Positions 14,335-43,968 of a stretch of 64,000 nucleotides of DNA are shown here, piece after piece. The position numbers and the translations under genes were made by a program. The notes under the pieces were generated by a model. The model was not told the origin of the DNA. It saw only the letters and a list, made by a program, of their open reading frames with translations, and did no database searches. The stretch's first letter is position 1. Every line of letters begins with the position of its first letter. Source of the DNA: Podarcis tiliguerta (lineage: Eukaryota); NCBI GenBank assembly GCA_965153285.1, contig OZ229122.1, one strand, 5' to 3'.

Positions 14335-14482
14335 ATGGGCGCTCTCAGGGCAGCCCCGTCTTTGCGTTGGCTCTGCATCGTCCTGGTGCTAGCAGGGCTG
14401 GCTCCCCTCACTGCTGCTCAGTACTGGTGGTCTTGGGGTCGACAAGAACCCACAACTGTGATGATGCCAACAACCCCCAAAG
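14335..14482 (+). CDS. Multiplexin-like exon 1 (signal peptide)
   Basis: [28 protein letters not shown]|[21 protein letters not shown]; donor G|gtaggt, phase 1. Confidence 0.8.
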
Positions 14483-17400
14483 GTAGGTGCAAAAGGCTTT
14501 CCATTGCTCTTCTATGCGGTGAAGGGGTTGGAAATGTAGGAGGCTCCAGAAAGGTTAATCTCAGATGTTTGGAGCAGAGAGGGCTTGGAGTCACTGCTTG
14601 GTTGTGTTGTAAATAGATCAAGGTGGGGGGGGGGGAAGGACTAGGAGTTTGCAACGGGAGGTATTCGGACTGCAGCTGTTTGGGGTTCGAGCGACCGCCA
14701 TAGTTGTGTGGCAGGCAAGATTTCAACAGGTGCTGCTTTCCCCTGCGTGGAGATGCAGTGAGATGCACAGCTTTTGCTACCAAAAGTTGCACAGCATCTG
14801 TGTACATGGGGTCTGCCTGTTGAACTGCTGCCTTTTCTGCAGCTGTGAGAGCTACAGGAGCCTTGCCCGGGGAAAGTTGGGGAGAGTGCTGTGTGGTGGA
14901 TAGCACTCTAAACTCTGACAGGGGAGGCTTGGGTTCAAATTTCTGCTTAGCCCTGATGCTTCAAGAGCAGTATTGGCCAGGTTGGTCTCTGGCCTGATCT
15001 ACCTCACAAGGTTGTTGTCAGCCCTATCCTGAGCACAGAAGAAGGAAGAATTGCAGAAGGAGGAAGAATGTACGATAAGAAAAGTTAGGAAATATGATTT
15101 GACTGTGATATGGTTCTATGAAATAATGATATTGGGAAATGCTACATATAACTACTAAGAAATTCAGATGGAAGGGATTTGAGGAAGTCAAATAATATGT
15201 TTATGAAGATGGATTTTAATTAATTGTTATTGTAGTGATGATTTGTTTTATTTTATGTTCCATATTCTTTTTTCTTTTTCTTTTTTTCTTTTTCTTTCTT
15301 CTTTTTTAGTATTGTTAATTTTTTTCTTTTATGTTTATGTATGAAAAATAATAAATATTATTGTGGAGGGGGGAAAAGGAGGAAGAATTGGATGTACTTA
15401 CTTTTACTTACTTACTAAATTTGTATGCCACCGTATACCTGTAGGTCTCAGGGCGGTTCACAGTTGGATGCCGCAATAAGAAATAAAACAAACATGGCAT
15501 TCTCCTAACTTTGGCTTTTCTTTCCTGATAGCTCAGTTGGTAGAGCACGATACTCTTAATCTCAGAGCCCTGGGTTCGAGTCCCATGTTGGGTGCATTGC
15601 AGGGGGTTGGACTTAGATGATCTTTGTGATCCCTTCCAGCTCTCATGATTCCGTGATTCCGCTGCTCTGGAAAACGGGTGTCAGAAATGGAGCGGTTTCC
15701 TTTTACATTTAGGATGCTCTGATGTGGTGGTAGTCTCTAACATTGTTTCGTTTTGCCTTCCCAGCCACGGAAGCAGATGTGGAGGAACCCACTGAGAAAA
15801 TGGTCCTGAACACCCCCACCCTTTGGGACACACCAGGGATATTTACAGAGGAGGTGGCAGTCTCCTCTGAAGCAACAACACCAGACCTGGTAAGCAGTTA
15901 CCGTGGGATGGCTGGATGAGGCCAGGGCATTCCTAGCACCCATGTTCGTGGCGAATCATGTAGCAAATATAGTGGAACTCTAGAATTGGAGGGAGCTTTG
16001 TAGGCCATCAAACTGGTACAGCAGGCATGGGGAATCTGTGGAGCTCCAGATGTTGCTGCACTACAACTCCCAACATCCCTGGAGATACTGGATGGGGATC
16101 CTGGGAACTGGAGTCCAACAACAGCCAGGCAATCCACAGGTTCCCTGTCCCAGCACTACAGCACGAGAAACCTCTGGCCCTCCAGATGTTGTCTGGCGCT
16201 AGTTCAGATCAGCCTCAGTCAGTGGCTAAGAATGACAAGTTATACAGTGGTTCTCAACCTGTGGGTCCCCAGATGTTGTTGGACTACAACTCCCGTCATC
16301 CCTGAGCTCTGGCCTTGCTAGCTAGGGGAGTTGTAGTTCAACAACATCTGGGGACCCACAGGTTGAGAAAGGCTGCTTCCGGAGGGTCACAGGCTCCCAA
16401 CACCTGATCTGGTGTAACCCTTTGCTTCATGCAAGTGAGCAGGGTTGGGGTTTTTCCACCTGGGAAGGCTCCTGTGCCTTTAAGAGCAGTGTGGCAAGCA
16501 GAGAGTTGACTATACTTCTATAGCCATCACTATATTTCTATACAGAATAAAGCTTTCGCCTCCTAGATTTCTGGCTTCCTCACAGCTTCCTCATAAAGCA
16601 AGGGTTTGACAGTGTGCCTGTGACAGATGTGTAAAATCATTATGAAGGGAGAGCGCAGCTGCAAAGGCGTGTGTTGGTAACTGGGTGCATATTTGTTTTA
16701 TTTTACTTCTGTTTGTTGCCTTTCTATCCTACCTTTTGTATTCCAAGGAGCTCAAGGTGCCACAAAATATTCTCCCCCTCCCTTCCTCATTTAATCCCCA
16801 CAACAACCCAGTGAGGTAGCTTAGGCTGAGAGGCAGTGACTAGCCCAAGGTCACCCAGTGAGCTTCATGGCTGAGTGGGGATTTTGAACCCTGGCAAGTA
16901 ATAGGAGCAATTTATTATTTATTTTATATTGTAAAATTTATACACCTCTTGATGGTAAAAAAAAAGGGGGGGGGGAGAAACACCTTAAATCGCTTTACAA
17001 AATAACACTTTGCGTTTATGTAGCGTGTTCAAATCACTCATACCTTTTTGCGTGATTTCCGTAATCTTTTGTTTAGTTAGCCACCACCATCATCCCCCCT
17101 GTAATATAGGTTGTTGGAAGAGGACTATGGTTATCAAGTTGTATGCTCTCTGTGCGCGCACACATGGAATCCTGGGAACTGTACTTTGTTAAGGGTGCAG
17201 GCAATGCTTTTTTCTGGGGGTACGCATACCCCTAAACATTTTGTGAATCTTTGAACTTTTGTCCATTTACTGTATTTATTTTTCCCAATTTGAACTATAA
17301 AATTGTGATTTTCTTGAGTCAAAATGAGAGTAAACATTTTTTTAGGGGTGGGGAAGCCCTAGGCAAAGAGAATTGAAGCTCTGTGAGGGGTAAACTACAC

Positions 17401-20400
17401 TTCCCAGGGCTTGGGGTGGGTGCGCTTTAAATGTATGGTGTGTGTATGTTCATGTCCATAGCGCAATTTGAACTTTCAGGCCAATAGCCAACGTTTCTGC
17501 ACTAGCCAGAGGTGATGTGTCTGACTTTGCATGTGAAATAACTTTGTTTTTGAATCTGGGTGAGTGAATTCACAAGTGAGTGGCTTAGTGTGTAGCAGAA
17601 ATAAAAACAAAATTGTACCCAGAGTGGTCACCCTGCGTACATTCTGGCCTCCGGAAGGGCATAAAGAAGCTTTTGCTAAAAGAACAACCCAGAATCATGA
17701 CAAACAACCCTATCTTTTTCATTTCCAAACACTTGTGTAAGAATTTGTCTAGTGTCCAAATTTGTCTCGTGTCGGGGGCCTAATCTGGCCCGTGTGGCAG
17801 TTTATTTGCTGGGGTAAAATCCTAAAAAAAGGTCAACAACATTGGTTGGCCCTTCGGTCGGCCCCCACGGCCCTTTACTTCATCAAATCTGGCCCTCTTT
17901 GCAAAAAGATTGGACACCACTGGTCTAGTGCAATATTAAATGTTCCATAATTATGAATATGCTTCATGTTCACACTTCACCTGCAAGAATGGGAGAATAT
18001 ATGGGGGTGGGGGGGTGGAAAGAGAGAGAGAAGATTCATCTTTTGCAAGTCCTTCACTCCCTGAGCAGAAAAGATTTTAGAAGTATATTCATGAACACTA
18101 TTCAGTGATCGATGACCTGAAAGCTGCATGCCTTTGAGTGAAGCTGCAGCTTTCAGCACATGTCGTCTCATTACTACCTGAGAAGGGGCGTATATAGGAG
18201 ATTGCAATCCTGTATGTAATAATTAATCTGTAGGAGCAACCACCTCCTCATTCCATTCAGTTATAAAAGGGGAGGGGAGCCCTTGGCTGTGAGCAATGAA
18301 GCAAACATGAAGGACACACAGCAATCAAACAGTTCCTCTATTAAGTTCACTGATGGAACTGGCATGGAAATAAGGAATTGGAAAGTGATAACCAGTGTAA
18401 CATGGAGATTCTGCTCTTTACTGTGCAAGTCCATTGATTCATCTGGCTGAGTATTATCTCCCCCAGGGAGAGGACCTGTAGTCTAACAACATCTGGAGGA
18501 CCACGGGCTCCCCATCCTTGGTCTATATCTGGTGTGGGGAGCCTTTGACCATCCAGATGTTGCTGACTACAACTACCACCATTCCTGTTTGCCGAGGCTG
18601 GTGGGCATTGTCCTTCATCAACATCTGGAAGGCCAGGGTTCCCCATCTTTGATCTACACTGGCAGGAACCGTCCAGGGCTTCAGAAATAAGTCTTTCACC
18701 ATCTTTACCTGGAGATCACCAGCAATTCAATCAGCGCTGGATAGCTCAGTTGATTAGAGAGTAGTGCTGATAATGCAAAGGTGGCAGATTTTATCCCTGT
18801 ATGAGACAGCTGCATATTCCTACTGCCGTTGGACTAGATGATGCTCAGGTCCCTTCCAACTCTAAAGTCCTATGATTCTGTGATTGTTAACCTGAGATCT
18901 TCTCATACAAAGCATGTGTTTTACCTCTGAGCTATAGTCTCTCTGCCCTGCCACCCTGTAGTTTGAGGAAATAGGGACTGTTTACATGCGCACCTATAAG
19001 GTAAAGGTAAAGGTCCTGACCATTAGGTCCAGTTGTGGCCAACTCTGGGGTTGCGGCGCTCATCTCGCTTTATTGGCCGAGGGAGCCGGCGTACAGCTTC
19101 CGGGTCATGTGGCCAGCATGACTAAGCCGCTTCTGGCGAACCAGAGCAGCGCACGGAAACACCGTTTACCTTCCCGCCGGAGCGGTACCAACTGCTAGGT
19201 TGGCAGGAGCAGGGACCAAGCAATGGGAGCTCGCCCCATCATGGGGATTCGAACCGCCAACATGCTGATTGGCAAGTCCTGGTCTCTGTGGTTTAAGCCA
19301 CAGCCCCACCCGTGTCCCGTTGCGCACCTGTAACGTAGCACATAAACAGACTGATCAGTTATCCTTTAACCACCATGTTGTACTCATAGCCAAAGTGCTT
19401 CAAGAGAGGCATCTGCCTGCAAAGGGAATGCAAGACGAGACGGACCTTTGGTCTAATCCAACAAGGCAATTCTTGAGTTCTAGGGGTTGTGAGCGCCAGC
19501 TCATGAACATACGTGTGGCTGTGTTTCCACGCACACACCCTGTAAAGTACACCGTCCTCCTTTGCAGGTTAGGTGCACTTGCTGCCCCACAGCCTTTCAG
19601 CCTTCCCCCCCCCCCCTTGGCATCTCAGCATGAAAGGCTTATGGCAATTCAGGCCAGACGGCTGCTCATCTGAGCATGCTCCCGATGTGGGAGATGCAGA
19701 CCAAAGTCCCAAGGCCAGCTCCCCCACCCTGAGACACACAATCGCTTCCTTTTCTCTCTTGGTTCCTTTCTCTCCACTTTATCAGCAACCAAGGTCCTGT
19801 CAGACACAACAAATCCTTGGATTCAGTACATGTACAGGGCTTAATTGGCCAAAGGGAAATGGCTAGAAAGGGACCAGCCCAAGCAAGCGTTGTGTGTCCT
19901 GCTTTTACAGAGGAGAGTCCTCTGTTTTGAAAGCCTGTCAGGAGATGCTCCTCTGTTTGATGGTGTCTTCCACTGGAAAGTGCCCTTCTGTTTCCTAATT
20001 TCTAAACATTACTTTTTTAAGTGTAGGTTTTTGACTTTATTTGGGCTGCTTGGCTGGGATGGCGTTGCCTGTTTGGGCAGGGATGACAACAGATGTTTCC
20101 TGCTGGGGTTTTTTACCTCTAGATTATTTGTTTGGGGAAAGTGTGGTGCTTTGCCTGTTTTGGATGGTGGTGGTTCTGAGCATCACTTTTTTTTTATCCT
20201 GCCAAATGGGTAGTTTCTGGTGCCCCCCAACAGTTGGTGTAGAATACAATGGCCAGCTTCCACCTGAGAACATGTGACATTATTAAAACAGCTGACCTGG
20301 CTGCCCAATTGCGCCCTCCCTGTGGAACGCCCTCCCACCAGATGTCAAAGAGAACAACAACTACCAGACTTTTAGAAGACATCTGAAGGCAGCCCTGTTT

Positions 20401-23400
20401 AGAGAAGCTTTTAATGTTTGATGTATCACAGTATTTTAATATTCTTTTGGAAGCCGCCCAGAGTGGCTGGGGAAACCCAGCCAGATGGGCGGGGTATAAA
20501 TAATAAATTATTATTATTATTATTACTGAGAGAGGTTCAAGCTTCTTGTGTTAATTTACAAGGCCCTGAACAACTTAAGCCCAGGGTATTGCAGGGATTG
20601 CCTTAACCCTTATGTTATATCTCAGTAGAGGTTTGGGGTTTGTGTGTGTGATTTCTTTTGTAAAAAAATAAATTGGAATCTTTTTGAAAGTGATACAAAA
20701 CAGTACCAAGAACAAGGCAAAAAAATTAAAAAATACAGAACAATCAAACCAGATGTTCCTGATCCCAGTCACTGAGATCATCTGCAAGAGCATCGTCGGT
20801 CATTCCGTAAGATGGTGAGGCTTGTTTGACAAGATACTGAGCCTTTAGTGTCATCTGTGATGTTTCTACATATTTAGAACGGGGATTTTTGTATGCTGCT
20901 ACATTTGCTATAGAATTACTGTTCTATTATTGCTGCTATTATTAAATTATTCTTGCAGTCTGTTGGTTTGGTGATGCCTTGCCCTGATTGTCACTTTCAG
21001 TATAATTTTGTGTGTATGTGAAAAGGTGGCATACAGATAAATTGATTATGACTTGGAATTTTTTGCTTGCTTTGCGGTTAATATTAGTTAGGCATAAGCC
21101 CAGTTCTAGGGATGTGGGTGGCGCTGTGGGTTAAACCACAGAGCTTAAGACTTGCTGATCAGAAGGTTGGCGGTTCGAATCCCCGTGACGGGGTGAGCTC
21201 CTGTTGCTCGGTCTCTGCTCCTGCCAACCTAGCAGTTCGAAAGCACATCAAAGTGCAAGTAGATAAATAGGTACCACTCTGGCGGGAAGGTAAACGGTGT
21301 TTCTGTGCGCTGCTCTGCTTCGCCAGAAGCGGCTTAGTCATGCTGGCCACATGACCCGGAAGCTGTACGCCGGCTCCCTCCCTGTACGCCAATAAAGCGA
21401 GATGAGCGCCGCAACCCCAGAGTCAGCCACGACTGGACCTAATGGTCAGGGGTCCCTTTACCTTTACCTAAGCCAAGTTCTGGTGTCTCTCTCCTCTCCC
21501 AATCCCATGTTATTAACGCTGTATGAATAGGAAAGTGGGGGGAGCACTCTCACTGCCACCCCTCACTGCCTCTCATTGCCATTGCTGCTCCCCCAGCCCC
21601 TCACATGCCGAGAGGACTGAACCTCTGCCACGGGGAGCCTTTTTTCTACCCCACAGGCTCTCTAGATCTTCCACTGCAGGAGTGGTTAGAGTTCAACAAC
21701 AAACTTTTATTCTCAGCTATAATTGATCTCGCAGATGAAGAATGCTTTCATTTTTATAAATCTTTATTATCTGAACAGTGAATCTTTGTATGAGTGAATG
21801 CTTTGTTATCCAGTTGTAGCTGTGCTGGGTCTTTGTACTTTTGTCCTTCCAGACCGTAAGGCTTTATAGTTTACATTTCTGGTTCTTCTTTTTCCCATCC
21901 TTTTTTGTTATGCTTACCCTTTGTTTGCTAATAAAAAATAAAATTAAAAAACAAAACAATCGGGGTGCTAGGAAACACGGCCCTTATTACCTCTCACATG
22001 ATAATTGTGTGAGGGGGGGGGAAACCTGAAGAGGACTATAAGGATTCAAAATTAATATATATGGTCTTAACCCCTTCATGCATTAATTAGACCAGGGTTT
22101 CCCAAACTTGGGTCTCTGGCTGTTTTCGGACTACAGTTCCCATCATCCCTGACCACTGATCCTGCTAGCTAGAGATGATGGGGGTTGTAGTCCAAAAACA
22201 ACTGGAGATCCAAGTTTGGGAAACATTGAATTAGACTGAAGCATGTTGGTTATATGAGACTGGTTATCCCACAAACTTTATGTCAGGCTGTGGTGTGCCC
22301 ACAAATTCCATTTTTCCCCCTCCCAGGCTACCTCTGCAGCTGACAAGGAGGAAGTGTTTCCTGGCATAGATTTTCCCTTTCAGGACATCCTTGAAGGCAG
22401 CACTGAGGATGAAGATGATGAATTTTTACACAGCCTAGTAACAGCACCGGGGAAGGAGGTGTCAACTGAGCTGGTACACTTCTGTTCTTTTCTGTAGCAA
22501 GTGGGTTGTTGTAATCTAAATATTTTCATCTGCCCCTGAAGGCTGGCTCACGCGGCAGCTGCTACCTACCTAGTTTTAGGGCTTATCCACATCTCTGCTC
22601 TTCCCAGGCATGGTCCACGCTTTAGAAAAGCTCAGTGTTCAAGCGCCTTCTTTTTTCTCTCTTTCTCTTTTGCTCCAGATGTTTCTCCATGGAAACCTGT
22701 TCTTTAAAGTTCAATCGAAACAAATGGCATTCCATGGAAAAACCTCTGTAAATGACTAAGCAGAGGGCCAATAGCAATGCCAGGAGTGAAGAACGCAACA
22801 AATTAAAGAATCAGCTACCATTTTGAAAAAACAGAGAGATGTGTGCGTTGTGTAGCTCCTAGGTCTTCCTACACCATTAGGAGATAGCAGCACTTTGCTT
22901 TGGAGGGTGGGAGGCCTGCTCAGTGGCAGGGAGGAGAAGACTTGGCATCTTAGTTGGTGTCTTACAAAATATGATTTCCTGTCACCATCTTGTTATCTCA
23001 GGAAGATGCAAAACCCTCAATGTCTTCAGTTCACCAAACCACAATCCGGGGAGACTCTGAGACAAAAGAGGTACATTTGGGGTTTTGTTCTGGAAAAAAC
23101 AGTGCCACGTCGAAAGAAAGGAATAGGGGGTGTGGGGAGTTAAAGGGATAGTGACCATAAATAAGTTCAATGGAACTTATTTCTGAGTAAACATACATTA
23201 GTTTATTGCCTTCTGGTGTGGGGGGTTGCTATGGTGAATATATAGCACTAAAGTGCCACGTGGAACCACCATTTTAATTCCCACTTTTTTTTTGCTGAGG
23301 CACTGAAAATCCTCTGTTAGAGAATCCTTGCTTTCCTTCAGAGACCTGCAATTCTCAAGGTTCATTGTGGAGACAGAGTGAAGCCAGTTTTAACCTGCAG

Positions 23401-26400
23401 TATGGCTGCAGGTTAATCAAAGTGGCTGGTCTTGAATAGCAACCATCATCAGAGATGCACTGTTTAGAGAATTCTCAGTTTGTTCATTTTGCCCGGTTAG
23501 AAAACACTTTTCTTTAAATATCCCAGAATGTCTACTAACGGCTCCTTTGCACACCTTTCAGGCACAGCCTGTGACTGAAAAATCATGGTGGCCTCTGGCG
23601 ACTGTTACAAAGGAGCATCCTCAGAAGGCTGAAGTGAGTCAATACAGGGTTTTGGTAGTCCATGGGCTTTGGTAATCCATGCCATATTTTTGTGAGACAT
23701 CATCACCAATACAGTTAATCTCAGCCATTCCTCTGTAGGTATATTGCCCAGGATTTTTTGAAATATTTCAGGACCTCCCTGGGTGGGGATTTAGGAAGAT
23801 ATACTGAAAGACATTGTACTGGTTATTTGGAAGGCCCACCCGCCCACATGACACAGTCATTGACACTGAGACATTGACAGACACAGCTTTGCTCAAAAAC
23901 AATATGGCGTATTTTTCAGGATTCTACGAGTGGTTAATTTATAGAGAGTGAAATGCCAGGCCTTGATTCTCTGACCAAGCTCCATGACTTCTGACTGACA
24001 CTCCCCTCATCAAATCCCAGATTGATATGAATGGTTATCTTGATAGGTCTTATTATATTTTCATTACAAATGTGCACCTTAACAATGTAAACAGGCAGGG
24101 AGGTTATCTGTTTTTTGTCATTGTCTTGTGTCTCAGGAGGACCCACATGTCTCGACTCCTGATGTTCACCAAACCGTGGGCAGGGGAGACTCTGTGGCAA
24201 AAGAGGTATGTAGGGAGTTCACTATCAAGAAGCCAATGCCACTGTGGAAGAAGGGGGAAAGGGGGAAACAACTAAAGGAAAAGCAGAACCGTCATGTTTG
24301 CAATACCAACTTCCTAGAAAGTATATGTGTATGTTTTGCCGGTAAGGTTTACTGGTAGGTTTGGTTCACATTTTAACACAAACTCTACCTAACCTTCACT
24401 TTGCAAAGCAATACACTCAAGATGGCGGGGGTGGCAGCTTTCAGCCTGAGGGCTGCATTCCCTTCTGGGCAAACCTCTGAAGGAGTCATGGCCTCCCCAA
24501 AAATTCCAGGGACTGTAGGAGATCCATATTCCCCTCAGAGAGCTACCAATCCCAAAGTGGTTTAACAATCAGCCCCTCTTCCTAGGGAACTATGGGATTT
24601 CTAGCTCCATGAAGGGAACAAGTCTCCCAACAACTCTCAATGCCCTTAACAAACTACAGTTCCCAGAATTCTCTGAGGGGAAGCCATGACTGTTTAAAGT
24701 GCTATAATACTGCTTTAAACGTATACTGCAGCTGGAGCCTTGTTTTTGTCAGATACTGTCCCTTCCAGATCTGCAGTTGCATGGAAAGTAACAATGCACC
24801 TTGGCAATGTAAAATGGCAGGGAGGTTATTAAATTTCCTAACTGTTGTCATCTTGTATCTCAGGAGGAACCACAACTCTTGACTCCTTCTGTTCACCAGA
24901 CCGTGGTCAGTGGGGACTCTGTGGCAAAAGAGGTATGTAGGCAGTTCATGATCAAGAAGTCAATGTCGCGGTGGAAGAAGGAGCCTAGACAGAATTATGG
25001 CAGCCTGACAGAGAGGCCTGGAATGGCAGCACTATTTCTTTTAAATCAATATTGTGACATTTATATCCCACTTCTCTTCCGCAAAGTTCAAGATGGCATA
25101 TGTGGTTCTCCTACTCATTTTTTTCATCCTCAAAACAATCCTGTGAAGTAGGTCAGGCTGACCCATGTAACTTGGACCAAGGTCACCCAGTAAGATAAAA
25201 TATTGTCTTTCCAGTTCTACAGTTACATGGAAAGAGGGAAAGAAGAAAGTTTTTTTAAAGTCTGGAATAATCAGGTGGAAATGACGCAGAAGGAAGGAAC
25301 TCTGATGGGATGAAATAATAGGGTAGATTTAGAAAGTTGGGGGTGAGTTGTCACACACACAGAGAGAGAGAGGGGGGGGGTCTGCTTTAAAGTCTCTGAT
25401 ATGGCCCTGGAGGGCCTTGAGGTATGTCTATATTAGGGTTGCCATATTTCAAGTAAAAATCTGGACACAAAAAATGGTTAAACTTTTTTAGGGCAATCAC
25501 CTGATAGCATCTCCACCACTGCCAAGCCTAAACCAGAGCCTGGGTTGCCAGAACCTGAAGCAGAACCACCCAAGCATATTTAAACAAAAAAAAATCCAGG
25601 ACATTTGCTTTAAAATGTAAAATTCTCGCCAGATGGGCATGTAGGACCCGCAGAAGAGGACATGTCCAGGAATTCCTGGACGCATGGCAACCCTAGATTC
25701 CTGACCTGGTGAAAAAGGTTTTAAATGTGTAATTTATTTAATTTTTTTTCGGCTTTTTGACAGGTGATTACGAAAGAGGAAACCTCATCCATTTCCCCTC
25801 CCAAGACAGTCGCTGCCTCCATTATTGGGGTAAAAAAGGGGAAAGTTGATGTTTGGGACTACAATTCCCATCATCCCTGACCACTGGTCCTGTTAGCTAG
25901 GGATGATGGGAATTGTAGTCCCAAACATCTGGAGGGCCGGAGTTTGCCTATGCCTGCTCTATGGGTTATGACTTTCCTCTCTGTGTTCCATTGGTGAGAG
26001 GTGATCTACCACTAACTACTTTTTCTGTTTTTCTTAGATGTATAATCTTTCCCAGTGTGTCTGTCCAGCAACACCAGGCCCTCGTGGTGCAAAGGTGCGC
26101 ATCTAAGCTTTCTCCCCCTGTGTTGGGTTGCTGTGGTAATGGCAAGTCCAGGCCAGTCTGCAGCTGAGGGTGTGTCTAGTCTACAAAAGGCATTTTCAAA
26201 CACCGCCTTGAAGAACATGCATAAGGCAAATGAAAACCTATTGGGCATCCCGAGCCATAAAGAAGGCCACATCTATACTACTGTGGTTGCTACCTCCCCC
26301 CCCCCAACCAAATAACCTGTGCCTTTTGAGGGTGGCACAATAACCAGGCATCCAAAAGCTGCAACTGTCCCCCATCTCTGTATCTCCTTGCTGAGAAGCA

Positions 26401-27264
26401 TTCGTGCTGTTGAGCTGTACTGATCTATTGTTTTGGAGCTGTTAGTCCAGCCTTCACTAAGGGGCATCCTGGCGCTGGGACTGATGAGAGTTGTAGTCCA
26501 AAACATATGGAAGGTAGCACCTGGTTGGCCGAATGCTGTGTTGCTATGGGGACTCTAGCTGCTAGACAGCAGCCCAAATAAATCTCAGGTGGGAAGGATG
26601 CTATTGCACTTAGGTCCTGCTTGTGGGCTCCTCCTAGGCACCTGCCTGGCCACTGTGAGAACATGATGCTAGACTAGATGGGCCATTGACCTGGTCCAGC
26701 AGGTCTCTCCTTATGCTCTTTGCCTACAGTGAGCTGAGAAATATTTCACTCTGTATGGAAGAATCATAGAATCGTAGAGTTGGAAGGCACCCTGAAGGTC
26801 ATCTAGTCCAAGCCCCAGCAATGCAGGAATCTCAGCTAAAGCATCCATGACAGATGGCCATCCAACCTCTGCTTAAATACCTCCAAGAGTACTATGGAAT
26901 CCAGTTAAGATGACTTTAAAGCCCTAAACAGCCTCGGTCCAGTATACCTGAAGGAGCGTCTCCACCCCCATCATTCTGCCTGGACACTGAGGTCCAGTGC
27001 CAAGGGCCTCCTGGCAGTTCCCTTGCTGCGAGACGCCAAGTTACAGGGAACCAGGCAGAGGGCCTTCTCGGTAGTGGCACCCACCCTGTGGAACGCCCTC
27101 CCACCAGATGTCAGGGGGGGGGAACTACCAGACTTTTAGAAGACATCTGAAGGCAGCCCTGTTCAGGGAAGCTCTTAATGTTTAATAGGTTTTTGTATTT
27201 TAATATTCTGTTGGAAGCCGCCCAGAGTGGCTGGGGAAACCCAGCCAGATGAGCAGGATATAAA

Positions 27265-27303
<39 letters not shown>

Positions 27304-30300
27304 TTGTCCCTAAAGGAACAACCATGGCCCCATCTCCAGCCATACATTTAAGTTTCCCCAAAATATGTGTGCATAAGCTTCTCCCAGAAGCCATTCAAAA
27401 TAAGTGTGCCCAAAGCAGACAAATAAGTGAGTTGCCTGCTGGCATTGGCTCCAGTCTGCCTATCTAAGCAAGTCCAAGACTCCAGAGGTTTCTAAGAGAG
27501 AAGGGGAGCGCTTTGCACAGCAGGAGACTGAGTACAGACCTTTGCTGTAGATCTTGACTGTTGCCTGAATCCAAAGTGCACGCCTCTCATCCTATGTTCT
27601 TTCCTACGGCAGGGAGACAAAGGTGACCAGGGTCCTCCAGGAGAAAGAGGACTTCCTGGGGAAAGGGGGCTAGCAGGCAACCCAGGCCAACCTGGACCTG
27701 CAGGACCCCCGGGACCTCCAGGCCAGTCCCTTCCAGGAGCTCCAGAATGTGGTGGTGCCAATGGTGGAAATGAAAAGGTGAGACTGGGCCGGGGGAGAGA
27801 ATTGAGGTCACTTCCTGATGAGTTGTTTGTTGAGCATTCATCCCGATTGGCTTCCACAAAGTTTGTGGAGAGGTTAGACAGCTCTGATTTATTTGGGGGG
27901 GGGGTTATGACGTCACATCAAGCGGCTATCGTCACACACCTTCCTGTGTGTTTTCCCATCACTTTGGTTATCACAAAAAAGACTGATTTGGGGTGGGGGG
28001 AGTGTGGTTGTTATGCAACAGCACCAAATCAACTTTAATTGGGCAACCGGAATGTGCCAATATGTGATTGATCCACAGCGGAAGATAGCAACACTTTGGA
28101 AGCACAGAGGCCAGGGGGGTTTCCAGGCTATGTGCATTAAAATCTTTTTCCAGCGCTTTGAAGTATCATCAACTTTATGAGCAAATGCTTTCAGGCTTTC
28201 AGGGAGGTTTCTAACACTTTGGCCCATGCTTTTCCCAGGCATAGGAGAGATGTCCAATCCAGATTGGGACTGCAGCAAGGGGAAAGTATTAAAGTCCTCC
28301 CTGCCAGGTTCCCAATGCCTGCCGTTTATTTATTTTTTAAAAGCCTTTCATGCAGCTGCTATTTTTTGGGAACAGCTTCTCTTCTGCTTTGGCCCTACGA
28401 CACTCACACATGCATTATATCAGCACAAGGTAGACATGGAATTGCAGCCCTGTCATGTCTTGTTTATCTTTTAAACCTAGTTCTTACTGAAGCGATAAGC
28501 TTTTATCGGGACTACAGATTGTGGGTGGGAGCTCGCATGGTTGAATACAAAGAAATTCCCTGCACACTGCGCCAGACTTCTCCCTTACATGCTAGCTTTC
28601 TGCATTTGGGGTTTTTTTGTGGAGGGAAATATTATCGCGTTGCTCCCACCTCCCATCTGAAGTGATCCAACTCCGACCCAGGTATATCCTCTCAGGAAGA
28701 ACTACCGGTAGATCTTAGCTTTGGTTTCCTAAGAAGTCAGAAATCTTGACAAATGCATTAGCAACTTCCCAAAGATGCTGAGCGATATTTTCTCTGCCTC
28801 TTAAAAGATCAACAACACACCTTGTGCCTCTTTTGTCATTTTCCCTAGGGGGTCAGCATCATGGAAGGGCCCCCTGGTCCAATGGGCTACCCAGGTCTTC
28901 CTGGGCCTCCAGGATACCCTGGTCAGGAAGGACCCCAAGGGCCCCCTGGCCTTCCAGGGCACGAAGGTCAGCAAGGTACGCCAGGCCTCCCTGGCACACC
29001 AGGCCAGCCTGGCCCACCAGGATCCACAGGGCCTGCAGGCATTCCGGGGCCAGTGGGGGCAGAGGGAATTCCCGGAGCCATGGGCCCTGAAGGGCATCCA
29101 GGACTTCCAGGCCACATGGGGCCACCAGGACCACCAGGCACTCCTGGGCAGAAAGGGCCTCCAGGACGAGAAGGGCTTCCAGGGAAGGACGGGCCAAAGG
29201 TAAGCAGCGCTGAAAGTGGGGTCATAGGTGAACTGTCAGAGGTGGGCGGCCTAATAGCAGGAAGGCAGGATGGAAGGGAAAGAAAAGCTAAATAAGATGA
29301 GCAGGAACAGGGACATGAACTTGCAGGCCTCCTCCTACCTACGCCCTGTAACAATGACAGGTATTTTGCTAGCTGGTAGATAAATGCCTGAATTTCCAAA
29401 GGAATTTGGGTGGGTCTCTGCTTGCCTTGAAGCAGACTGGGTGGGTGGGTGGGTTGGTGTGAGTCAGAGGCGAGGGACACCAAGCCTACATTTCTCTTTA
29501 TAAAAATAATAAAAATAATAATGAAAATGTTGGTGCAGTGGTACCTCAGTTGTCGAACGTTATCTGTTCCGGAAGACCGTTCGACTTCCAAAACATTCGA
29601 CAACTGAGGCGCAAAGGGCCATCTGCAATTTCCATTGAGAAAACTGAAAAACACACAGCAGAAGCCATTCAGCTTCCGAGGTGTGTTCGAAAACAGAAGC
29701 AATTACTCCTGGGTTTTCGGCGTTCGAAAAACAAAACACTCGGCTTCTGAGATGCTCAGAAACCGAGGTACCACTGTACTTACAAACTTTGGCTTTCTGT
29801 TTTAGGACTTGTGATAATGTTTGTGGTTTATTCTTGCAGGGTGAGAAAGGTGAGGTTGGCCTACAGGGCCCTCCTGGCAATCCAGGTATAAAAGGTGAAA
29901 TGGGGCTTCAGGGTGCACCTGGGCCCATGGGTCCTCCTGGTGAGAATCAGGTGAGTGGAAATGCACTTTGCTCTGAGCTAGCATGCTCTCTGATACCCAT
30001 CTGGGATTGCTTACTTATGGCACACTAAGGCCGTGTACACATTCCTACTTACTCTGCATCCAGTGCTCTCCCACCACTGGTTTGTGAAGACATATACACA
30101 CAACACTAACCACAATCCACACCTGTCCTGTAGTGTCTTGAGGAACATTGCATTCTGACGTGTTTTCCTCCCACAAACCAGCTTCCATCTGATCATGAAA
30201 GCCATATGAAGGCATTAGGGTTGCCTGACCTCCAGGTCTGACCCGAAGTCCTCAGGTTTGCCTGCCCTCCATCCAGGTGGCAGGTGGAGGGTTTGAATGT

Positions 30301-33300
30301 CCAGGTGAATGGGAGTGCCTTTAATAATAAAAATTATTATTAATAGAACTATGTATTCAGCTTGCAGGCTCTAGCCCAGCAGGAGCTGGCTGCAAATTAT
30401 AGCACAGACACTCTGAGCGATCTGCCCTCCTTCTCCTCTCCCCTCTCCCAATTAACTTCTGTCTCCATGATCCACCGGGGGCCTCCCCCCAGAACATCAA
30501 ATAAATAAATAAAAAGGAGTATTCCCTGGATGCCTAGAACCAGGTTTGGGGCAAGTGCTCTTTGGTTAGAGGAACCCCAGCAGAGATTTAAAATCGCAAA
30601 ATATGCAGCAAAGTAAAGAGTGGAAATATAGGCTATTAGATTTTTAAAAAATCCCTTCTAAGTTGCTTCCAAAATTCCCCTCAGTGGCAGCCTTTGGTCT
30701 CTCAAATTTCAGTAGCACCATGTGCAACACTAAAATTCCGCACGCATCCTGCCTCTTGCACTCCATTCTAAAGCATTGTTTTAGCGCCCCCTGCAATGCG
30801 GGGCCCAGTGTGACCCTTAAACCGCTTCTGTTCCCTCTTCCCTTAGCACAGAAAGAGACCACATGTAAGTGGTTTACTTACAATCTCTTCAACAGTCATA
30901 TTCATGTGTTTTTCCATACATCAGCAAGAAAACACAGGCAGTAAAACATAGGTTCCAAAGTGGTGAATGCTTCTAAATTATTTGTATAGAAACACAAAGA
31001 TAGCTTGCTTACGCCACATGGCCTTAGCTTGAAGCATCCAACTTAGACCTCCTTACAGGTAGGATTCACATGATAATCCTTCGACCCAAGGTAAGGGGGA
31101 GTGACCTAGCCAAGCCTGGCAAGACAGCTTGCTCTATGATCTTCAAGCCTTCGTGCATTAATTAGACTTAAGCATGTTGGTTATATGAGGCTGCTTATCC
31201 CACAGAAGTGGGGTAAGATGGCCCCAAAGGCAAGCTTGTGTATAACTTAACTTTCATCGAAACTTTCAAGACATTATGACCACAGACATGAGCCTGCCAA
31301 AGCATAGGGTGATCCTGGTTACATTTTAGAAGCTAAATGGAACCTAGAATTGTGATAGTTATGAGGCTTCCGTTGCTTCCTATTGATCCTTGGGCCCTTG
31401 CCCCTCCATGCGGGACTGCTTTTTATTCTTCCTTGCCCCTTCCATTTCCGCCTTCCACTCCCCCAGTTGTTGCAAAAAAGAGAGAGGAGAAAATCCTTTT
31501 CCTTAACGGACGTTGAAAACTATACATATGTTTTATAAATATAAACAGGTATGTGCAAAAATTGTTCTTAATTGGCACATAAACACCAAAGTCTGCCAAC
31601 AACACAGGTCCAAAGGATCTGTCACTTGTGCATGGGCAGTTGTTGGGGGGGTGTTCCTTATGGGTTGCATCAATGCCCTTCTCTTCTCTCTTTGTAGTGC
31701 AACACTCGTGCAAGAGTTCCTGGGCCTCCAGGTCCTAAGGTGAGTATGACGCCTATCAAGTAACATGGCAGAGATGGGGGGGGGGGAGCAGTGGCCTTCC
31801 AGATGTTCTTGGGCTCCAGCTCCCTTCAGTCCCAGCCATCAATGTCAATGGTGAGCGATGATGGGGGTTGTAACCTGACACCTGCAGGGCTGCAGGTTCC
31901 CCAGCTCTACTTACACTAGCATGCTTTCGAACTGCTAGGTTGGCAAGAGCTGGGACAGAGCAACAGGAGCTCACCCCGTTGCGGGGATTCGAACCGCCGA
32001 CCTTCCGATCAGCAAGCCCAAGAGGCTCAGTGGTTTAGACCACAGCGCCACCCTTTCCCCCCATCCCTGTCATACCAGCAGGAGAAACAAGGTGGTGCAG
32101 GAAGGGCATCCAAAATCTCTGTGTGGGGGCAACCACTACAAATACAATGGCGTGTAGTTAAGTTGTGGACTAGAGCTGACTTTGGATACCCTGGAAATTC
32201 TTTTCCTTCCTCACTTTCACCACCCTCTGCCCCCAGTTACAAGGGGAAGAGTGGAGAGATGGGTGGTGGGCTGCCTCTCCTTCCTTTCTCTTTGGGTGAT
32301 TCCCTTTCTTCAGAAGGATGCGGTAGGAGCCCTCGCTCACGGAGCCCACCTCAAAGTTTTCATCATGAGCTGAAAGGATGGAAAAATTGGGAAACCCAGA
32401 GAACCCATGGTCGCAAATTCTATTCATCCCTGTTTGTAGCTGTGTTTATTTTTGCTCACATCCTCTTGCGAAATGTGTCTCTTCCTCCCGGAAAAAAAAC
32501 ATCCTTTTGTGTGTTTCTTCAGCATTTATATTCCTGCCATCTTATCTTCTCCCTGCTTCTCTGGTCTCTGTTTTGCCTTGTATCAAAAGCAGAGCGGGTG
32601 TGAGTCAGAGTTGAGGGACTCCAAGCGTACATTTTTCTTTTAAAAATAAATAAATTAGTACTTACAAACTTTGGATTTCTGTCCAGCTGTCTCTCCCTTT
32701 CCCTCCACCTTCCTCTGCTTCTGCCTTGCCTCTTGCGTATGTTCGCATCGGTGCTTTAAAACACAGCAAGGTTTGCTCCAATTCAGCTATAAAATGGGAA
32801 AGTGCCGGGACAAAAAAAAATCCCTGCAGTTCTGAAGCATGGACCTGTGCCTGCAGAGTGCAGTGCAAAAGGAAGTATAGCTAAGCCCTTAGTTTCATGC
32901 CTGCAAGGGGCCTGTCAAATCAGTTAATCGTGGATTAATCCTGGAATTCTAGAGCTGGAAGGGACCCTGAGGGTCATCTAGTCCAACCCCCTGCAATGCA
33001 GTAATCTGAGCCAAAGCAGACATGCAAGGTGGCCATCCAACCTCTGCTTAAAAGCCTCCAAGGAAGGAGAGTCCTCTCTTTGCAAAGAGCAGTGCAAAAT
33101 AGGCAATCGTAAGAACTTTTGGGTATCAGCATGAGTTTGTGTGTGTGTTTGACTACAAGGCCACAGACTTCCTGAGTTCATACTTTTAAGGTGCAGGGAA
33201 GCTGCCTGCAACTTTAGATCTGCTTTGCTGGGTTGTAGCAAAAGCCCGTTTACTGCTCCAGCCATGTATTCCCCTGTAATCATTTCAGAAGCAAAGAGCT

Positions 33301-36300
33301 GCAACCAAACCTAGAGGACAAAGCAGCAGTTAGCCTCATCACACCCTGAACAGAATCAGCAGCACAAGTTTGTACACTGGGCAGGGGAAGCTGCTGTGAA
33401 GAAAGGCCTGTTTTGAACCTAGAGACTCTAAATACGGGGTGATTTAGAGTCCTCACGAACCATCAGCTTCAGGCAGTGCTGCCCACAGTGTCCTTTGAGT
33501 TGGCGAGCCACCCTGCCTTCTTCCCGAAATTGGGTGTGGTGGGGAAAGAACCATCCCCAGGAGTGTCGTTCTCTAACTTAAGAGCTCCTGATCCTATCAT
33601 AAGCTTATGAATAGGCTTGTCGCTGTGTCCCTGGCTGTACCTATAAGTGTGTCATGGTGATTTGACCTCCCATTTGGTTTCTTTTCTTCCCCCTTGCAGG
33701 GTGAAAAAGGAGAACCTGGAGAACGGGTACGTAGTTGTGCAAAGAGGACCCACATCTTCAAAGCACTGTGATGCATTCTTCTTCTTCTTCTTCTTCTTCT
33801 TCTTCTTCTTCTTCTTCTTCTTCTTCTTCTTCTTCTTCTTCTTCTCATTCAAAGGCCCTTCATTGTGTTTTCTTACCCAGGATTGCTGCAACTGCCCTGG
33901 AGCAACAAAAGCTGACTCTGACTCCTGGACACCTTTTACCTACCAAGAGGTACACTGAAATATGTTTGCCAACACCCTGCCATTTAGGATTGGTGGTCTT
34001 AACACTGAGTGCATGGGGCAGTGTTTCCTCCAAGGATCAGTTAAGGGGAAACTTGTGCTTGGTATCTGCTACAAGCCTTTGTCTGTGGAGGAACAAAAAG
34101 CAAAGGCGGAAGTCAGTGGAGGGCAAAAGGTATTTTAGTGGGCTTCCAGTGCTAGTCTGGATTGTCATGGGCCAGGGGTCAGCAAACTTTTTCAGCAGGG
34201 GGCTGGTCCACTGTCCCTCAGACCTTGTGAGGGGGCAAGACTATATTGGGGGGGGGGCACAAATAACCCAGAGATGCATTTTAAATAAAAGCACACATTC
34301 TACTCACGTAAAAACACCAGGCAGGCCCCACAAATAACCCAGAGATGCATTTTAAATAAAAGGACACATTCCTCTCATGTAAAAACATGCTGATTCCCGG
34401 ACTGTCCAGGCCGGATTTAGAAGGTGATTAGGCTGCACATCTGGCCCCCAGGCCTTAGTTTGCCTACCCATGTCATGGGCCATATTGGAGGAGGTGTTTC
34501 CCCAGGATCTCCTCTTAGGGTGCATACAGGTTGTAGAAAAAACACCCCAAAACTCAACCAACAATTCTGTCCCACTGCTTCTCCTCATACCCAAGAGTTC
34601 CATCATATTGATACATGCATGTTCCAAAGCAATGCCAATTTTAATATTTAGGCATGGCTTAGTAAAAAAAAAAAATGTTGCCACCGTTCCTGGCCTATTT
34701 ATTTATTTACTTACTATTTCACATCACAAGATTTATATGCCGGTTGACTGTAACAAAGCCTCAAAGTAGTTTATAGAAAGAGCCAAAAATGCAGTGTCAA
34801 TAGACTCTCCCAGCTTGTACTAATGGTGGTTGTGTTCCAAAGTGTGACCTGCCATGGGTGTAAACATCCTGAATTTCTGCAGTCAATGGGGAAAGAGGCA
34901 GGGGTGTGTGTGGCTTATGTATTAAGTAAAAATGACATGGGTGGGCAAGATGTGCCCGTGAGCAATATCAGGATATTGAGTTGGCGTCTTTTTCTTCTCC
35001 TCCTCCTCCAGAATGGCAAAGGAGACCTTGAGATATATGGCTCGATTGCCAGCCGTGTAAGCCAGCCATTTCATCTTCTCCAACAAACCTTGGTTTGGTT
35101 TTGGTTGTGTTTTTTTTTTTAAATTGTATCTTGCCTTCAGAATGTGCTGTCTTCCCAATCTTGGCCTTTTCCCTTAAAAAAAAAACCAGAACAGATAAAA
35201 AGAAGCAATTTTGCCTAAACTGGGAGTAGGGAACCTTTTTCAGTCTGAGGGCTGGCTTTCCTCGTGGCAGCCTTATGGGGTCCATGTGGTAGGTGTGGCC
35301 AGAGGCAAAAGTGGGTGGAGCAATGGATGCGACTCCTACCTTTGAACAGGTGGATACATTCCAGCCATGCAAAAGTCACAAGTTTCAGCACACATGCATA
35401 CAAACCATCCCTCCATCCAAGCTAGCAGGCAGGGCTAGCCCAGGACGCTAGAGACAAAACACAAATTGCTGCCTCTGTCCCCTCTGCTACATGCTTGCAT
35501 GCTGCTGTGCACCCACCATGCACCTGCCTGGCATGTGACCGCTGTCACATGCATGAATGGGCATGCAGCTGCGAGTGTATGGGGGGGGGAGAGAGAAGAT
35601 CATGAGCGGTGTGCTCCTTAGAGGTTGGATCTGCTGCCCCTCCCAGCTGTCCAGAGCTTGCTGCCTTGAGGCTACTGCTTCATCCTGCCTCATGGGTAGG
35701 CTGGTCCTGCTAGCAGGAGGCGTAATCACAGTTCAAGGCACAGTCCAGCCAGGCAAAAGCACTCGAGAAGGGCTTGGTGATGGAGTACAGGCAGAGAGCC
35801 CCAGAGGGCTCTGCATTTGACCTCTTGACCCCCAGTTTCCACCCACCACCCCAGACTAAATGAGCATTGTATGGAACCAAAGATCCCAGGCTGACTTCCT
35901 TAGAGTATTGGAGTCCCCCTGAGTCTTGCACGAGAAACAGTTGTGCAAGCAGGCAAGCTATTCGCCAGCCCATTCAGACGTCAAGGTGTGAAATGTAATG
36001 GTGTTTGCAAAGTTCGGTTTCAGAATGCAGGTAACACCCAGTGTCTCTGTTCCCTTCTCTGCTTCTTCTAGGGTCCTCCAGGCCCCGCAGGAAATCCCGG
36101 CATGCCTGGGCCCCCAGGCCCTCCTGGACCACCAGGAGTTATTTACCTTAATGTAAGTGATCCTCATCCACTACCCCCCACCAAAAAAACCCACCTCAAT
36201 GTTAGGGGAGATGGAGCAGCCACATGGTATTTAGAAGAGTGACTTGTGGAAAGTTAGGGATCTGTCTCTTCAGCTGTTTTTTAAACATCACATACATGGG

Positions 36301-38322
36301 ATGGGGTTTTTCTTGCTTTGTGGGATTTTGTATCTAATACTGAAAGCTATCCCCCTTTCCGCTTTAACCTGTGTTTTTTCCTTCCCCTGCCTCCCATCTG
36401 TCTCTTTCCAGAGGGTGATCCCTATCCCACCCAGGAGGCATTGCAAGCAACCGGTGAGTTGGCAGGGCCAAATGGCTGCTTTTTCGCTGCTCTCTAATAC
36501 GTCTTGCAAAGACAAGTAGCTCCAGGTTCCACCAAAAGCATCGTTCAGCAATCCAAGCCTCTGTTGCATGAGAGGACAGCCAAAGGAATATTTCCTGTGT
36601 AGAATGAACAGAAATGTTTGGTTCTGGTGTAGCAGCAGCCTTGGCTAAAATATTAGTAGTATTAGTAGTAGTGGTATTTATTACATACCGTATTTTTTGC
36701 TCTATAAGACTCACTTTTTCCCTCCTAAAAAGTAAGAGGAAATATGTGTGCGTCTTATGGACCAAATGCAGGCTGCGCAGCTATCCCAGAAGCCAGAACA
36801 GCAAGAGGGATTGCTGCTTTCACTGCGCAGCGATCCCTTTTGCTATTCTGGCTTCTGAGATTCAGAATTTTTTTCTTCTTGTTTTCCTCCTCCTAAAACT
36901 AGGTGCGTCTTGTGGTCTGGTGCGTCTTATAGAGCGAAAAATATGGCAATTGGCAAATACATTTCATTAATTAATTGCTCTTTACAAAATAAAAAAGGTA
37001 TCAAAGCAGCTTGCAATAATTTAAAATACAAAGTACCATAAGATGAACCACAACCAAAATTTACAGAAATGGTTGGGTACAACAGACAGTGCTGGTCTGC
37101 AGACAAAATTAATGCTGCTGACCCCTGAACTTGGTAGACGCTCCCCACACATAAGACGCAGCCCTGTGGGTTAAGGGTGCCTTGCTCAGCAAGAAGGCCG
37201 ATTTAAAAATCTTTTGATTCAATTTTTCACTGAGTCCCACCCCAAACTGGGCAAAGTGTTTTCTGCACACTCCATTCGCCTCTATAACTTGGCTCATGTG
37301 GTGCTCATCTCTGTGCTCTTTGTTTTCTTCCAGTTGAGCCAGGACCCATCTTTGGATTCAGGTGCGAGCCGTTTTCTTTCTGGCTAATAATGTGCGACTT
37401 CTCTTGCGTATCTGCTCTGCTGCGATTTGATGTGGCTTGCATCTCTATCCAGCATATGGCCAACCGGCAGCCACTTTGTGGGGGGGCGTGCGAGGATATA
37501 GTCTGCAGAGGGTTTTTCTCTGACTCTGCAATCTGTGGTTCCACCGGTTCTTTGCTGAATTCAGCCTGTGGATGACACAATATTAGCCCAGGACTTGCAT
37601 GTACACTTCTAGTAGACATTTAGCTCTAGCCAGTCCCTTCTTCACCACCTTTACAAGGGAAGAGAAACTTGTGGAAATGTATGCAATGTGCCCTGTTTGG
37701 GTGTTTTCTGAGAGTCTTCCTTGCCACCACTGGCAGCATACTGGTCTTGGAATTTGAGCTGTGAGTGTGTTGCCAAGTCAGTAAGGAAGAATTGTTGTCT
37801 GCCAGCCATTCTAATTTAGAACCATTAATATGCAGCACTTCAGGATGTTGTTTACAGACTCTCCTCTTTGGGGGTGGGGAGCTTTTTCTTGTACAGTTGA
37901 TGGAATATTTGCTTCCTGGGATGGATGGTGGCTGGTTAGTTCATTCTGTCCTTTTTTCTGCTGTGCAGATGATGGGCTGTCTTTGAAGGATTCTTCCAAT
38001 GAAAACCAGTATGGGTTTAAGGTAGGTCACCTTCATTCTTCTCCTTTCTGATACTCCCTCCAATAGTTAGTCCAGGGTAAAGAGCTGAACAAGTACAGGT
38101 AGAGGGAACCAGGCAAATGGCCTTCTCAGTGGTGGCACCTACCCTGTGGAACGCCCTCCCATCAGGTGTCAAGGAAATAAACAACTACTTGACTTTTAGA
38201 ATACATCTGAAGGCAGCCCTGTTTAGGGAAGTTTTTAATGTTTGATGTTTTATTCTGGTTTTTTTTCTGTTGGGAGCCACCTGGAATGGCTGGGGAAACC
38301 CAGCCAGATGGGTGGGGTATAA

Positions 38323-38361
<39 letters not shown>

Positions 38362-43531: not shown

Positions 43532-43968
43532 GAAGAGCGCAGCTTCAGATCAGCAAGGAACAGCAGAAGGAGCCAGTTGCTTCAAAGGCTGGATCAGGAT
43601 GACCCTTAAGACACATGAGGTGGAAAATGCAGGTACTCACGCTTCCACCCCAGCTGGGAAAGAATGTTTGAGAGGAAAGAAAAACCTTGCATCGCCTGCA
43701 CCTCAGCAAGCTGCCATGTGTGCTGATATGTAGAATCAGCAGCTCACGCAGGCAGGTGCAAAAGGGGCTTCTGCTTTGTTACAATGTGTGTACCTGGACT
43801 TACATGTGCACCACCAGCACTCATGTACAGTATGCTCATATACACACTGCTGAGAGGTTTAGGAACTTTTGCTGGAGTTATGACGTGTGCTTGTTATGGA
43901 TGTGTGTTAACCCTTATGCCCACAAGAAGCTCTCACATGAAGAAACAAAGAAAGCTTGGTTTATTATA

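What the first reader, a model, noticed from the sequence alone, without database searches (positions are those of the whole stretch)
22920..24985. Tandemly triplicated 69-nt exon supplying RGDS integrin-binding motifs
Seen: exons 23002-23070 (..[13 protein letters not shown]), 24137-24205 (..[13 protein letters not shown]) and 24864-24932 (..[13 protein letters not shown]) are paralogous. So are their intronic flanks (ggcagggagg...tctcag upstream of all three; gtatgtagg.agttca..atcaagaag.caatg downstream of copies 2 and 3). All keep AG/GT and phase 0-0. Known: GRGDS is the fibronectin integrin-binding motif, and Ser-Gly near acidic residues is the GAG attachment signal. Inference: in a non-helical stalk the RGDs should be exposed, giving up to six per trimer. 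One Arg/Ser difference may swap an integrin site for a possible GAG site, and symmetric exons would allow tuning by alternative splicing.
Basis: partly seen in the sequence, partly recalled or inferred. Interest (0 to 1): 0.72.

Follow-up and report, generated by a model that had tools for sequence, protein, structure and literature searches.

The report
RGD exon copies in lizard collagen
A little-studied third member of the collagen XV/XVIII family in lizards carries three copies of one small exon, two of them encoding the RGD tag, which likely lets the protein grip cell-surface integrins at several points, though many other lizards and snakes lack the tag.

Summary
The three 69-nt exons are real, paralogous, phase 0-0 and spliced in (contigs of 4 of 4 runs laid; RNA status guessed by the tool). 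They are not strictly tandem: an unrelated 72-nt exon (23562-23633) lies between copies 1 and 2. They sit in the acidic Ser/Thr-rich stalk of a short multiplexin gene between an IGFBP gene and a type II topoisomerase gene of a lacertid lizard, a third paralog distinct from this genome's COL15A1 and COL18A1. The exon family is squamate-wide (1-3 copies). RGD is in 10 of 23 aligned copies and in 6 of 14 squamates (all lacertoids and iguanians examined), absent in snakes, an anguid, a skink, a cordylid, geckos (KGD), turtles and quail. Its conservation is good but not exceptional (7 of 65 other stalk triplets equal or better). Lacerta agilis has RGD in all three copies, so copy 3's Ser-Gly is a recent Arg-to-Ser change, and it fails the collagen XV GAG consensus. 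No skipping of these exons was seen. Verdict: constitutive, lineage-variable stalk repeats; integrin binding plausible but untested; the GAG swap and splice tuning are unsupported.

The parts
14335..43531 (+). Host gene: short multiplexin (collagen XV/XVIII-like third paralog), 26 coding exons, 869 aa: leader, acidic Ser/Thr stalk, interrupted collagen, trimerization domain, endostatin-type domain
   Evidence: Exon model 809/869 identical and colinear with Lacerta agilis XP_033024914.1; Pfam PF01391, PF20010, PF06482
22327..22473 (+). 147-nt exon before the repeats; holds the Glu-Gly-Ser + acidic-run motif (22393-22428) that is the best-conserved part of the stalk
   Evidence: 3' end shown by splice joint; motif present in 19 of 19 sauropsid stalks; triplet with 1 parsimony step
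23002..23070 (+). Repeat copy 1, RGDS (RGD codons 23047-23055)
   Evidence: 1 of 23 residues differs from Lacerta
23562..23633 (+).
   Evidence: GT..AG joints on both sides in 4 of 4 runs; present in the Lacerta model; no similarity to the copies
24137..24205 (+). Repeat copy 2, GRGDS (RGD codons 24182-24190)
   Evidence: 2 of 23 residues differ from Lacerta
24864..24932 (+). Repeat copy 3, SGDS (Ser codon 24909-24911); RGDS in Lacerta agilis
   Evidence: 5 of 23 residues differ from Lacerta
24073..24254 (+). Duplicated unit around copy 2, intron flanks included
   Evidence: 80.5% over 190 columns to 24795-24981
24795..24981 (+). Duplicated unit around copy 3, intron flanks included
25764..25829 (+). 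66-nt stalk exon after the repeats; in other lizards a further repeat copy follows it, here none
   Evidence: joint; ortholog order
26038..26094 (+). 57-nt exon with two cysteines, start of the collagenous region
   Evidence: tblastn of ortholog stalks
39759..39893 (+). Collagen trimerization domain exon
   Evidence: PF20010, 35.2 bits against cut-off 23.8
41933..43531 (+). Three exons of the endostatin-type domain (41933-42127, 42412-42527, 43336-43531)
   Evidence: PF06482

Best explanation
These are three spliced-in copies of one small exon in the non-collagenous stalk of a third collagen XV/XVIII-family protein, and their RGD tags likely act as integrin-binding sites whose number rose by exon duplication in lacertid lizards. 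Shown: paralogy, inclusion, gene identity, distribution of RGD. Inferred: the chain is secreted and forms a homotrimer through its C-terminal trimerization domain; the stalk (19% Asp+Glu, 22% Ser+Thr, 9% Pro) is unstructured, so three stalks would display 6 RGD here, 9 in Lacerta agilis, 6 in Rhineura and 3 in iguanians; copies come and go freely because nearly every exon of the gene is phase 0-0; copy 3 here is a decayed, redundant RGD rather than a new glycan site.
For: Single contig joins all five stalk exons at GT..AG in 4 of 4 runs, 2 studies; the Lacerta RefSeq model has the same exons. RGD in 10 of the 14 copies of the six lacertoid and iguanian species, at least one in each. In all three iguanians the 5' copy keeps RGDS and the 3' copy has lost it, the pattern expected if one site must be kept. 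RGD is one of only four invariant triplets in those six species (24 of 87 columns invariant; set chosen for having RGD). The Arg codon differs synonymously between copies 1 and 2; Arg is 3 of 227 stalk residues. Both geckos have KGD there. Osteopontin shows that RGDS-Val in an intrinsically disordered protein binds alpha-v integrins (PMC10340489, passages).
Against: No stalk RGD in 8 of 14 squamates and 0 of 5 turtles/bird (models may omit exons). Unbiased parsimony on the 5' copy of 8 species: RGD costs 3 steps and 7 of 65 other triplets cost 3 or fewer, including Val-His-Gln in the same exon. Between copies pN is close to pS (0.30/0.37, 0.26/0.45, 0.15/0.12; few sites). Copy 3 lost the Arg here. 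An RGD in an acidic matrix protein can be inactive because of its flanks (phosphophoryn, PMC4232355, abstract). No binding or exposure evidence was obtained.
Confidence: 0.48

Rival explanations
1. The repeats are spacer or O-glycosylated stalk modules; RGD is a passenger inside a moderately conserved block (constrained by splicing signals, glycosylation or composition) and binds no integrin in vivo.
For: RGD no better conserved than Val-His-Gln beside it or the acidic-exon motifs; lost in several independent lineages; copy number and order vary; symmetric exons in disordered regions often arise by internal tandem duplication (PMC3632108, abstract); inactive RGD precedent.
Against: One intact RGD persists in every lacertoid and iguanian examined (6 of 6), with asymmetric loss in iguanians; 7 of 8 lacertoid copies intact despite 30% nucleotide divergence between copy 1 and the others.
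Confidence: 0.44
2. One reading: copy 3's Ser-Gly carries a glycosaminoglycan chain in place of an integrin site, and alternative splicing of the symmetric exons tunes the mix.
For: Ser-Gly-Asp is there; multiplexins are proteoglycans (PMC7852327, passages); the change tallies of runs X3 and X6 leave no substitution that would give Arg at 24909-24911, so the related organism A appears to share the Ser (inferred, tables 1 and 3).
Against: Lacerta has Arg; the site fails D/E-X1-2-S-G/A; no skipping joint among the 15 joints listed (11 hidden) and no break in the contigs across the repeats, although a minor unspliced form did break the X3 contig at the next exon; none of 22 isoform comparisons in 8 species removes only a repeat exon.
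Confidence: 0.05

Closest known systems
Multiplexins: collagen XVIII (COL18A1, endostatin) and collagen XV (COL15A1, restin)
   Same: Interrupted Gly-X-Y domains, C-terminal trimerization domain PF20010 and endostatin-type domain PF06482; acidic non-collagenous N-terminal region.
   Different: Separate gene: G000 also holds COL18A1-like (C1, 56.05 Mb) and COL15A1-like (C13, 3.45 Mb) loci; own clade in the tree; 869 aa with no TSPN domain; RGD repeats in the stalk (the collagen XV review has 0 occurrences of RGD).
RefSeq 'collagen alpha-1(XVIII)/(XV) chain-like' models of sauropsids, e.g. Lacerta agilis XP_033024914.1, Rhineura floridana XP_061444266.1, Anolis carolinensis XP_062813991.1
   Same: Orthologs; the Lacerta model already contains all three repeat exons and the 72-nt exon.
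   Different: Automatic annotation only; copy 3 is RGD in Lacerta and SGD here; non-lacertids have 1-2 copies in another order.
Osteopontin and other SIBLING proteins
   Same: RGDS followed by Val in an acidic, disordered extracellular chain.
   Different: No homology tested or claimed; monomeric, single RGD; analogy only. Phosphophoryn shows such a motif can be silent.
Fibronectin GRGDS
   Same: Five-residue match in copy 2.
   Different: Fibronectin presents it on a loop of a folded type III module with a synergy site (recalled); here there is no folded module.

Membership tests
Multiplexin (collagen XV/XVIII family) | Multiple interrupted Gly-X-Y domains | tested here: met
   (PF01391, 5 stretches in the Lacerta ortholog; 74 bits for window exon 28849-29199)
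Multiplexin (collagen XV/XVIII family) | C-terminal trimerization domain | tested here: met
   PF20010 35.2 bits, cut-off 23.8
Multiplexin (collagen XV/XVIII family) | Endostatin/restin domain | tested here: met
   PF06482; solved endostatin and restin structures at E 1e-44 to 1e-47
Multiplexin (collagen XV/XVIII family) | N-terminal TSPN domain | tested here: not met
   Leader runs straight into the low-complexity stalk in the window model and all sauropsid orthologs; no such Pfam hit, though Pfam also missed the TSPN-like N-termini of two shark proteins. Hence filed as a variant, not a canonical member.
COL15A1 or COL18A1 ortholog | Groups with either gene; no other copy in the genome | tested here: not met
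   Both genes exist elsewhere in G000; the window falls in a 21-row frog/turtle/bird/squamate clade, support 98/92
Multiplexin proteoglycan / GAG site in copy 3 | D/E-X1-2-S-G/A consensus | tested here: not met
   No match in the window stalk; 13 of 19 sauropsid stalks match, all at the acidic exon upstream, none in a repeat (consensus from PMC7852327)
Multiplexin proteoglycan / GAG site in copy 3 | Chain actually attached | not testable with these tools
   needs enzyme shift or glycoproteomics
RGD integrin ligand | RGD tripeptide in an expressed, non-triple-helical extracellular region | tested here: met
   secretion inferred from a hydrophobic leader read by eye, no predictor run
RGD integrin ligand | Motif exposed and flexible | tested here: inconclusive
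   Composition fits disorder; the structure model failed throughout
RGD integrin ligand | Motif conserved above background | tested here: inconclusive
   7 of 65 triplets equal or better in 8 species; 6 of 14 squamates keep it
RGD integrin ligand | RGD-dependent binding or adhesion | not testable with these tools
   bench assay needed
Alternatively spliced cassette exons | Skipping isoforms exist | tested here: not met
   contigs drop rare forms, so low-level skipping is not excluded

The most novel reading that the evidence does not exclude
Tetrapods other than mammals keep a third, undescribed multiplexin that lost the TSPN domain; in squamates one stalk exon acquired an RGD and became a selected, exon-encoded integrin-binding module whose copy number (0-3 per chain, up to 9 per trimer) sets adhesion strength, turning a basement-membrane collagen into a multivalent integrin ligand in lacertids.
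Probability: 0.3. Interest if true: 0.65.

Novelty: new variant of a known kind. Interest (0 to 1): 0.4.

Why it matters
Vertebrates are usually credited with two multiplexins; this is a third lineage known only from automatic annotation in the sources searched, and its stalk offers a natural series (0, 1, 2, 3 RGD per chain across squamates) for asking whether a linear integrin motif is gained, multiplied and lost under selection. If RGD proves inert, the finding reduces to ordinary exon duplication in a disordered linker.

Tried and rejected
No RNA holder is on record for this stretch; the runs laid are guessed to be RNA, come from a related organism (A) and are contigs, so they give no inclusion levels. 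Reads were laid only on 22300-25840, so splicing of the rest of the gene rests on the Lacerta model. A search for short fragments with the Lacerta stalk found none (222 candidates, 0 hits), so no further lacertid, teiid or varanid copies were obtained; the Rhineura-stalk search gave only already known proteins. AlphaFold2 on a 14-row alignment failed (mean pLDDT 33, even in the endostatin domain): no evidence either way on disorder. The ESM Atlas gave only collagen clusters below 0.9. No remnants of a fourth copy or of duplicated neighbouring exons were found in 14000-44000, so the order of duplication events is unresolved. dN/dS across orthologs was not possible (proteins only). A search for a source on Ser-Ala glycosaminoglycan sites gave no usable listing. 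Earlier-finding look-ups were empty. The placement of shark and lamprey proteins is unstable in the tree (they group apart from the tetrapod third clade, long branches, midpoint root), so no age or 2R origin is claimed; Tiliqua was dropped from the tree (short domain). No complex prediction was run.
Full report
Observation. The three exons are at the stated places, 69 nt each, AG/GT-bounded, open in frame 0. Pairwise identity is 47, 48 and 59 of 69 nt and no shuffle of 1000 reaches these scores; the intron flanks of copies 2 and 3 are also homologous, those of copy 1 only weakly, though the quoted 10-mer precedes all three (4 matches in the window, 0.25 expected). Copies 2 and 3 form a unit of about 190 nt at 80.5% identity, found nowhere else in G000 by DNA search. 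Copies 1 and 2 encode RGDS, copy 3 SGDS.

Expression and splicing. Four of the 14 listed runs (X1, X3, X5, X6; two studies; RNA status guessed; organism A, a relative) were laid on 22300-25840. In each, one contig shows GT..AG joints 22473>23002, 23070>23562, 23633>24137, 24205>24864, and a joint 24932>25764 is present in all four. This proves inclusion in a spliced form, corrects the upstream exon end, and reveals a 72-nt exon between copies 1 and 2 that is unrelated to them. No skipping joint is among the 15 listed (11 hidden). In X3 the contig ends 30 nt into the next exon, exactly where an unspliced contig of depth 4.9 joins, so minor forms can break these contigs, and none did across the repeats (inference). 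Contigs drop rare forms, so low-level skipping is not excluded.

The gene. A 26-exon model (14335-43531, 869 aa) is colinear with and 809/869 identical to Lacerta agilis XP_033024914.1; the closest hit of the first search was Podarcis muralis at 98% over 65 aa, so the source is a lacertid lizard. It has collagen repeats, a trimerization domain and an endostatin-type domain but no TSPN domain; the mature stalk of 227 residues is 19% Asp+Glu, 22% Ser+Thr, 9% Pro, 7% Lys+Arg. It lies between an IGFBP-domain gene and a type II topoisomerase gene (weak TOPRIM_C hit; the names IGFBP4 and TOP2A are recalled from sequence and gene order). G000 has three endostatin-domain loci: C1 56.05 Mb matches collagen XVIII best, C13 3.45 Mb matches collagen XV best, and this one is distant from both (69 and 44 bits). 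In a 43-row tree the window lies in a clade of frogs, turtles, birds and squamates (98/92), apart from the collagen XV (98/94) and XVIII (97/92) clades. 20 of 24 internal exons are phase 0-0, so symmetry of the repeats is the norm of this gene, as is common for disordered regions (PMC3632108, abstract only).

Conservation of the repeat. Orthologs show the same exon family in 1 to 3 copies. Most lizards with two copies have the order copy - (72-nt-type exon) - 66-nt-type exon - copy; lacertids have copy - 72 - copy - copy - 66, without the last copy. Of 23 aligned copies from 13 squamates, 10 have RGD: window 2 of 3, Lacerta 3 of 3, Rhineura 2 of 2, Phrynocephalus, Sceloporus and Anolis 1 of 2 each. 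Elgaria, Tiliqua, Hemicordylus, three snakes and two geckos (KGD) have none, nor do four turtles and a quail (which adds Paroedura: 6 of 14 squamates). These are annotated models and may omit exons. On the 5' copy of the 8 species that have it, RGD needs 3 parsimony steps against a column mean of 2.0, and 7 of 65 other triplets need 3 or fewer (species tree recalled): top eighth, not an outlier. Among the six RGD-bearing species RGD is one of four invariant triplets, but that set is chosen by the trait. Between window copies pN is near pS, lower in the 3' half (too few sites for a test).

GAG swap. Lacerta has Arg where the window has Ser, and copy 3 is among the faster-changing stalk exons (5 of 23 residues against 1 and 2). 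The review of collagen XV gives D/E-X1-2-S-G/A as the consensus (PMC7852327, passages and section 6); the copy-3 site fails it and the window stalk has no match. The match in 13 of 19 sauropsids is instead the Glu-Gly-Ser-Ala plus acidic run of the upstream exon (Ser-Thr here), and that exon, not a repeat, is the stalk exon skipped in annotated isoforms of Rhineura and Gopherus flavomarginatus. None of 22 isoform comparisons in 8 species drops only a repeat exon; one Anolis isoform starts downstream of its RGD copy.

Mechanism. Most likely the exons are constitutive stalk modules multiplied by intragenic duplication, and RGD serves as an integrin ligand in lacertoids and iguanians (0.48): a homotrimer (inferred from PF20010 and from collagen XV) would show 6 sites here and 9 in Lacerta; osteopontin is the functional analogue (PMC10340489, passages). 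The near-equal rival is a spacer with a passenger RGD (0.44); phosphophoryn shows that an RGD in an acidic matrix protein can be silent (PMC4232355, abstract). The splice-tuned integrin/GAG switch is unlikely (0.05).

Novelty. The gene and exons are in RefSeq as 'collagen XV/XVIII-like'. Nine paper searches (listings only, apart from the four papers named) showed no paper on a third vertebrate multiplexin or on these RGD repeats; the review speaks of two human multiplexin genes. The library lacks most subscription journals and no supplements were opened, so gene-loss tables may list it. Absence in mammals other than human was not tested beyond the lack of mammals among the named hits. Rating: new variant of a known kind, interest 0.4.

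Noticed in passing
window 14335-43531: The host gene itself is a third multiplexin paralog present in frogs, turtles, birds and squamates, without TSPN in sauropsids; no paper on it surfaced. Probably of more general interest than the repeats.
   Followed up: partly
window 22393-22428: Glu-Gly-Ser plus acidic run is the most conserved stalk motif (19 of 19 sauropsids); it meets the collagen XV GAG consensus in 13 of 19 and its exon is skipped in annotated isoforms of Rhineura and Gopherus. Lacertoids, a skink and geckos have Thr or Ser instead of Ala after the serine.
   Followed up: partly
window 42127-42129: The intron after the first endostatin exon begins GC, not GT (GC-AG intron by the model); the matching introns of the genome's COL15A1 and COL18A1 begin GT.
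   Followed up: no
G000 C1:49.89-49.98 Mb and C1:56.05 Mb: A tandem IGFBP-domain pair lies 6 Mb from COL18A1, echoing the IGFBP gene beside this third paralog; suggests a paralogon, but COL15A1 is on C13, not beside the other pair on C12.
   Followed up: partly
protein P0051: A Limosa gene model fuses endostatin exons of this gene to topoisomerase II, indicating the same neighbour in birds and an annotation error.
   Followed up: no
protein P0028: A 295-aa ortholog-like protein is labelled Lysinibacillus fusiformis in nr, probably contamination by vertebrate sequence.
   Followed up: no
proteins P0086, P0091, P0110: Skate, frog and lamprey relatives have their own independent Thr-rich or tandem repeat expansions in the N-terminal stalk, so this region expands by repeats in many lineages.
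   Followed up: no
window 10152-11620 (-) and 43914-44604 (-): Broken reverse-transcriptase frames of a LINE-type element and a mariner-like transposase fragment flank the gene (identity recalled from motifs, not tested).
   Followed up: no
window 24500-24740 and 25450-25700: Interspersed repeats inside the introns around copy 3 draw many unrelated contigs.
   Followed up: no
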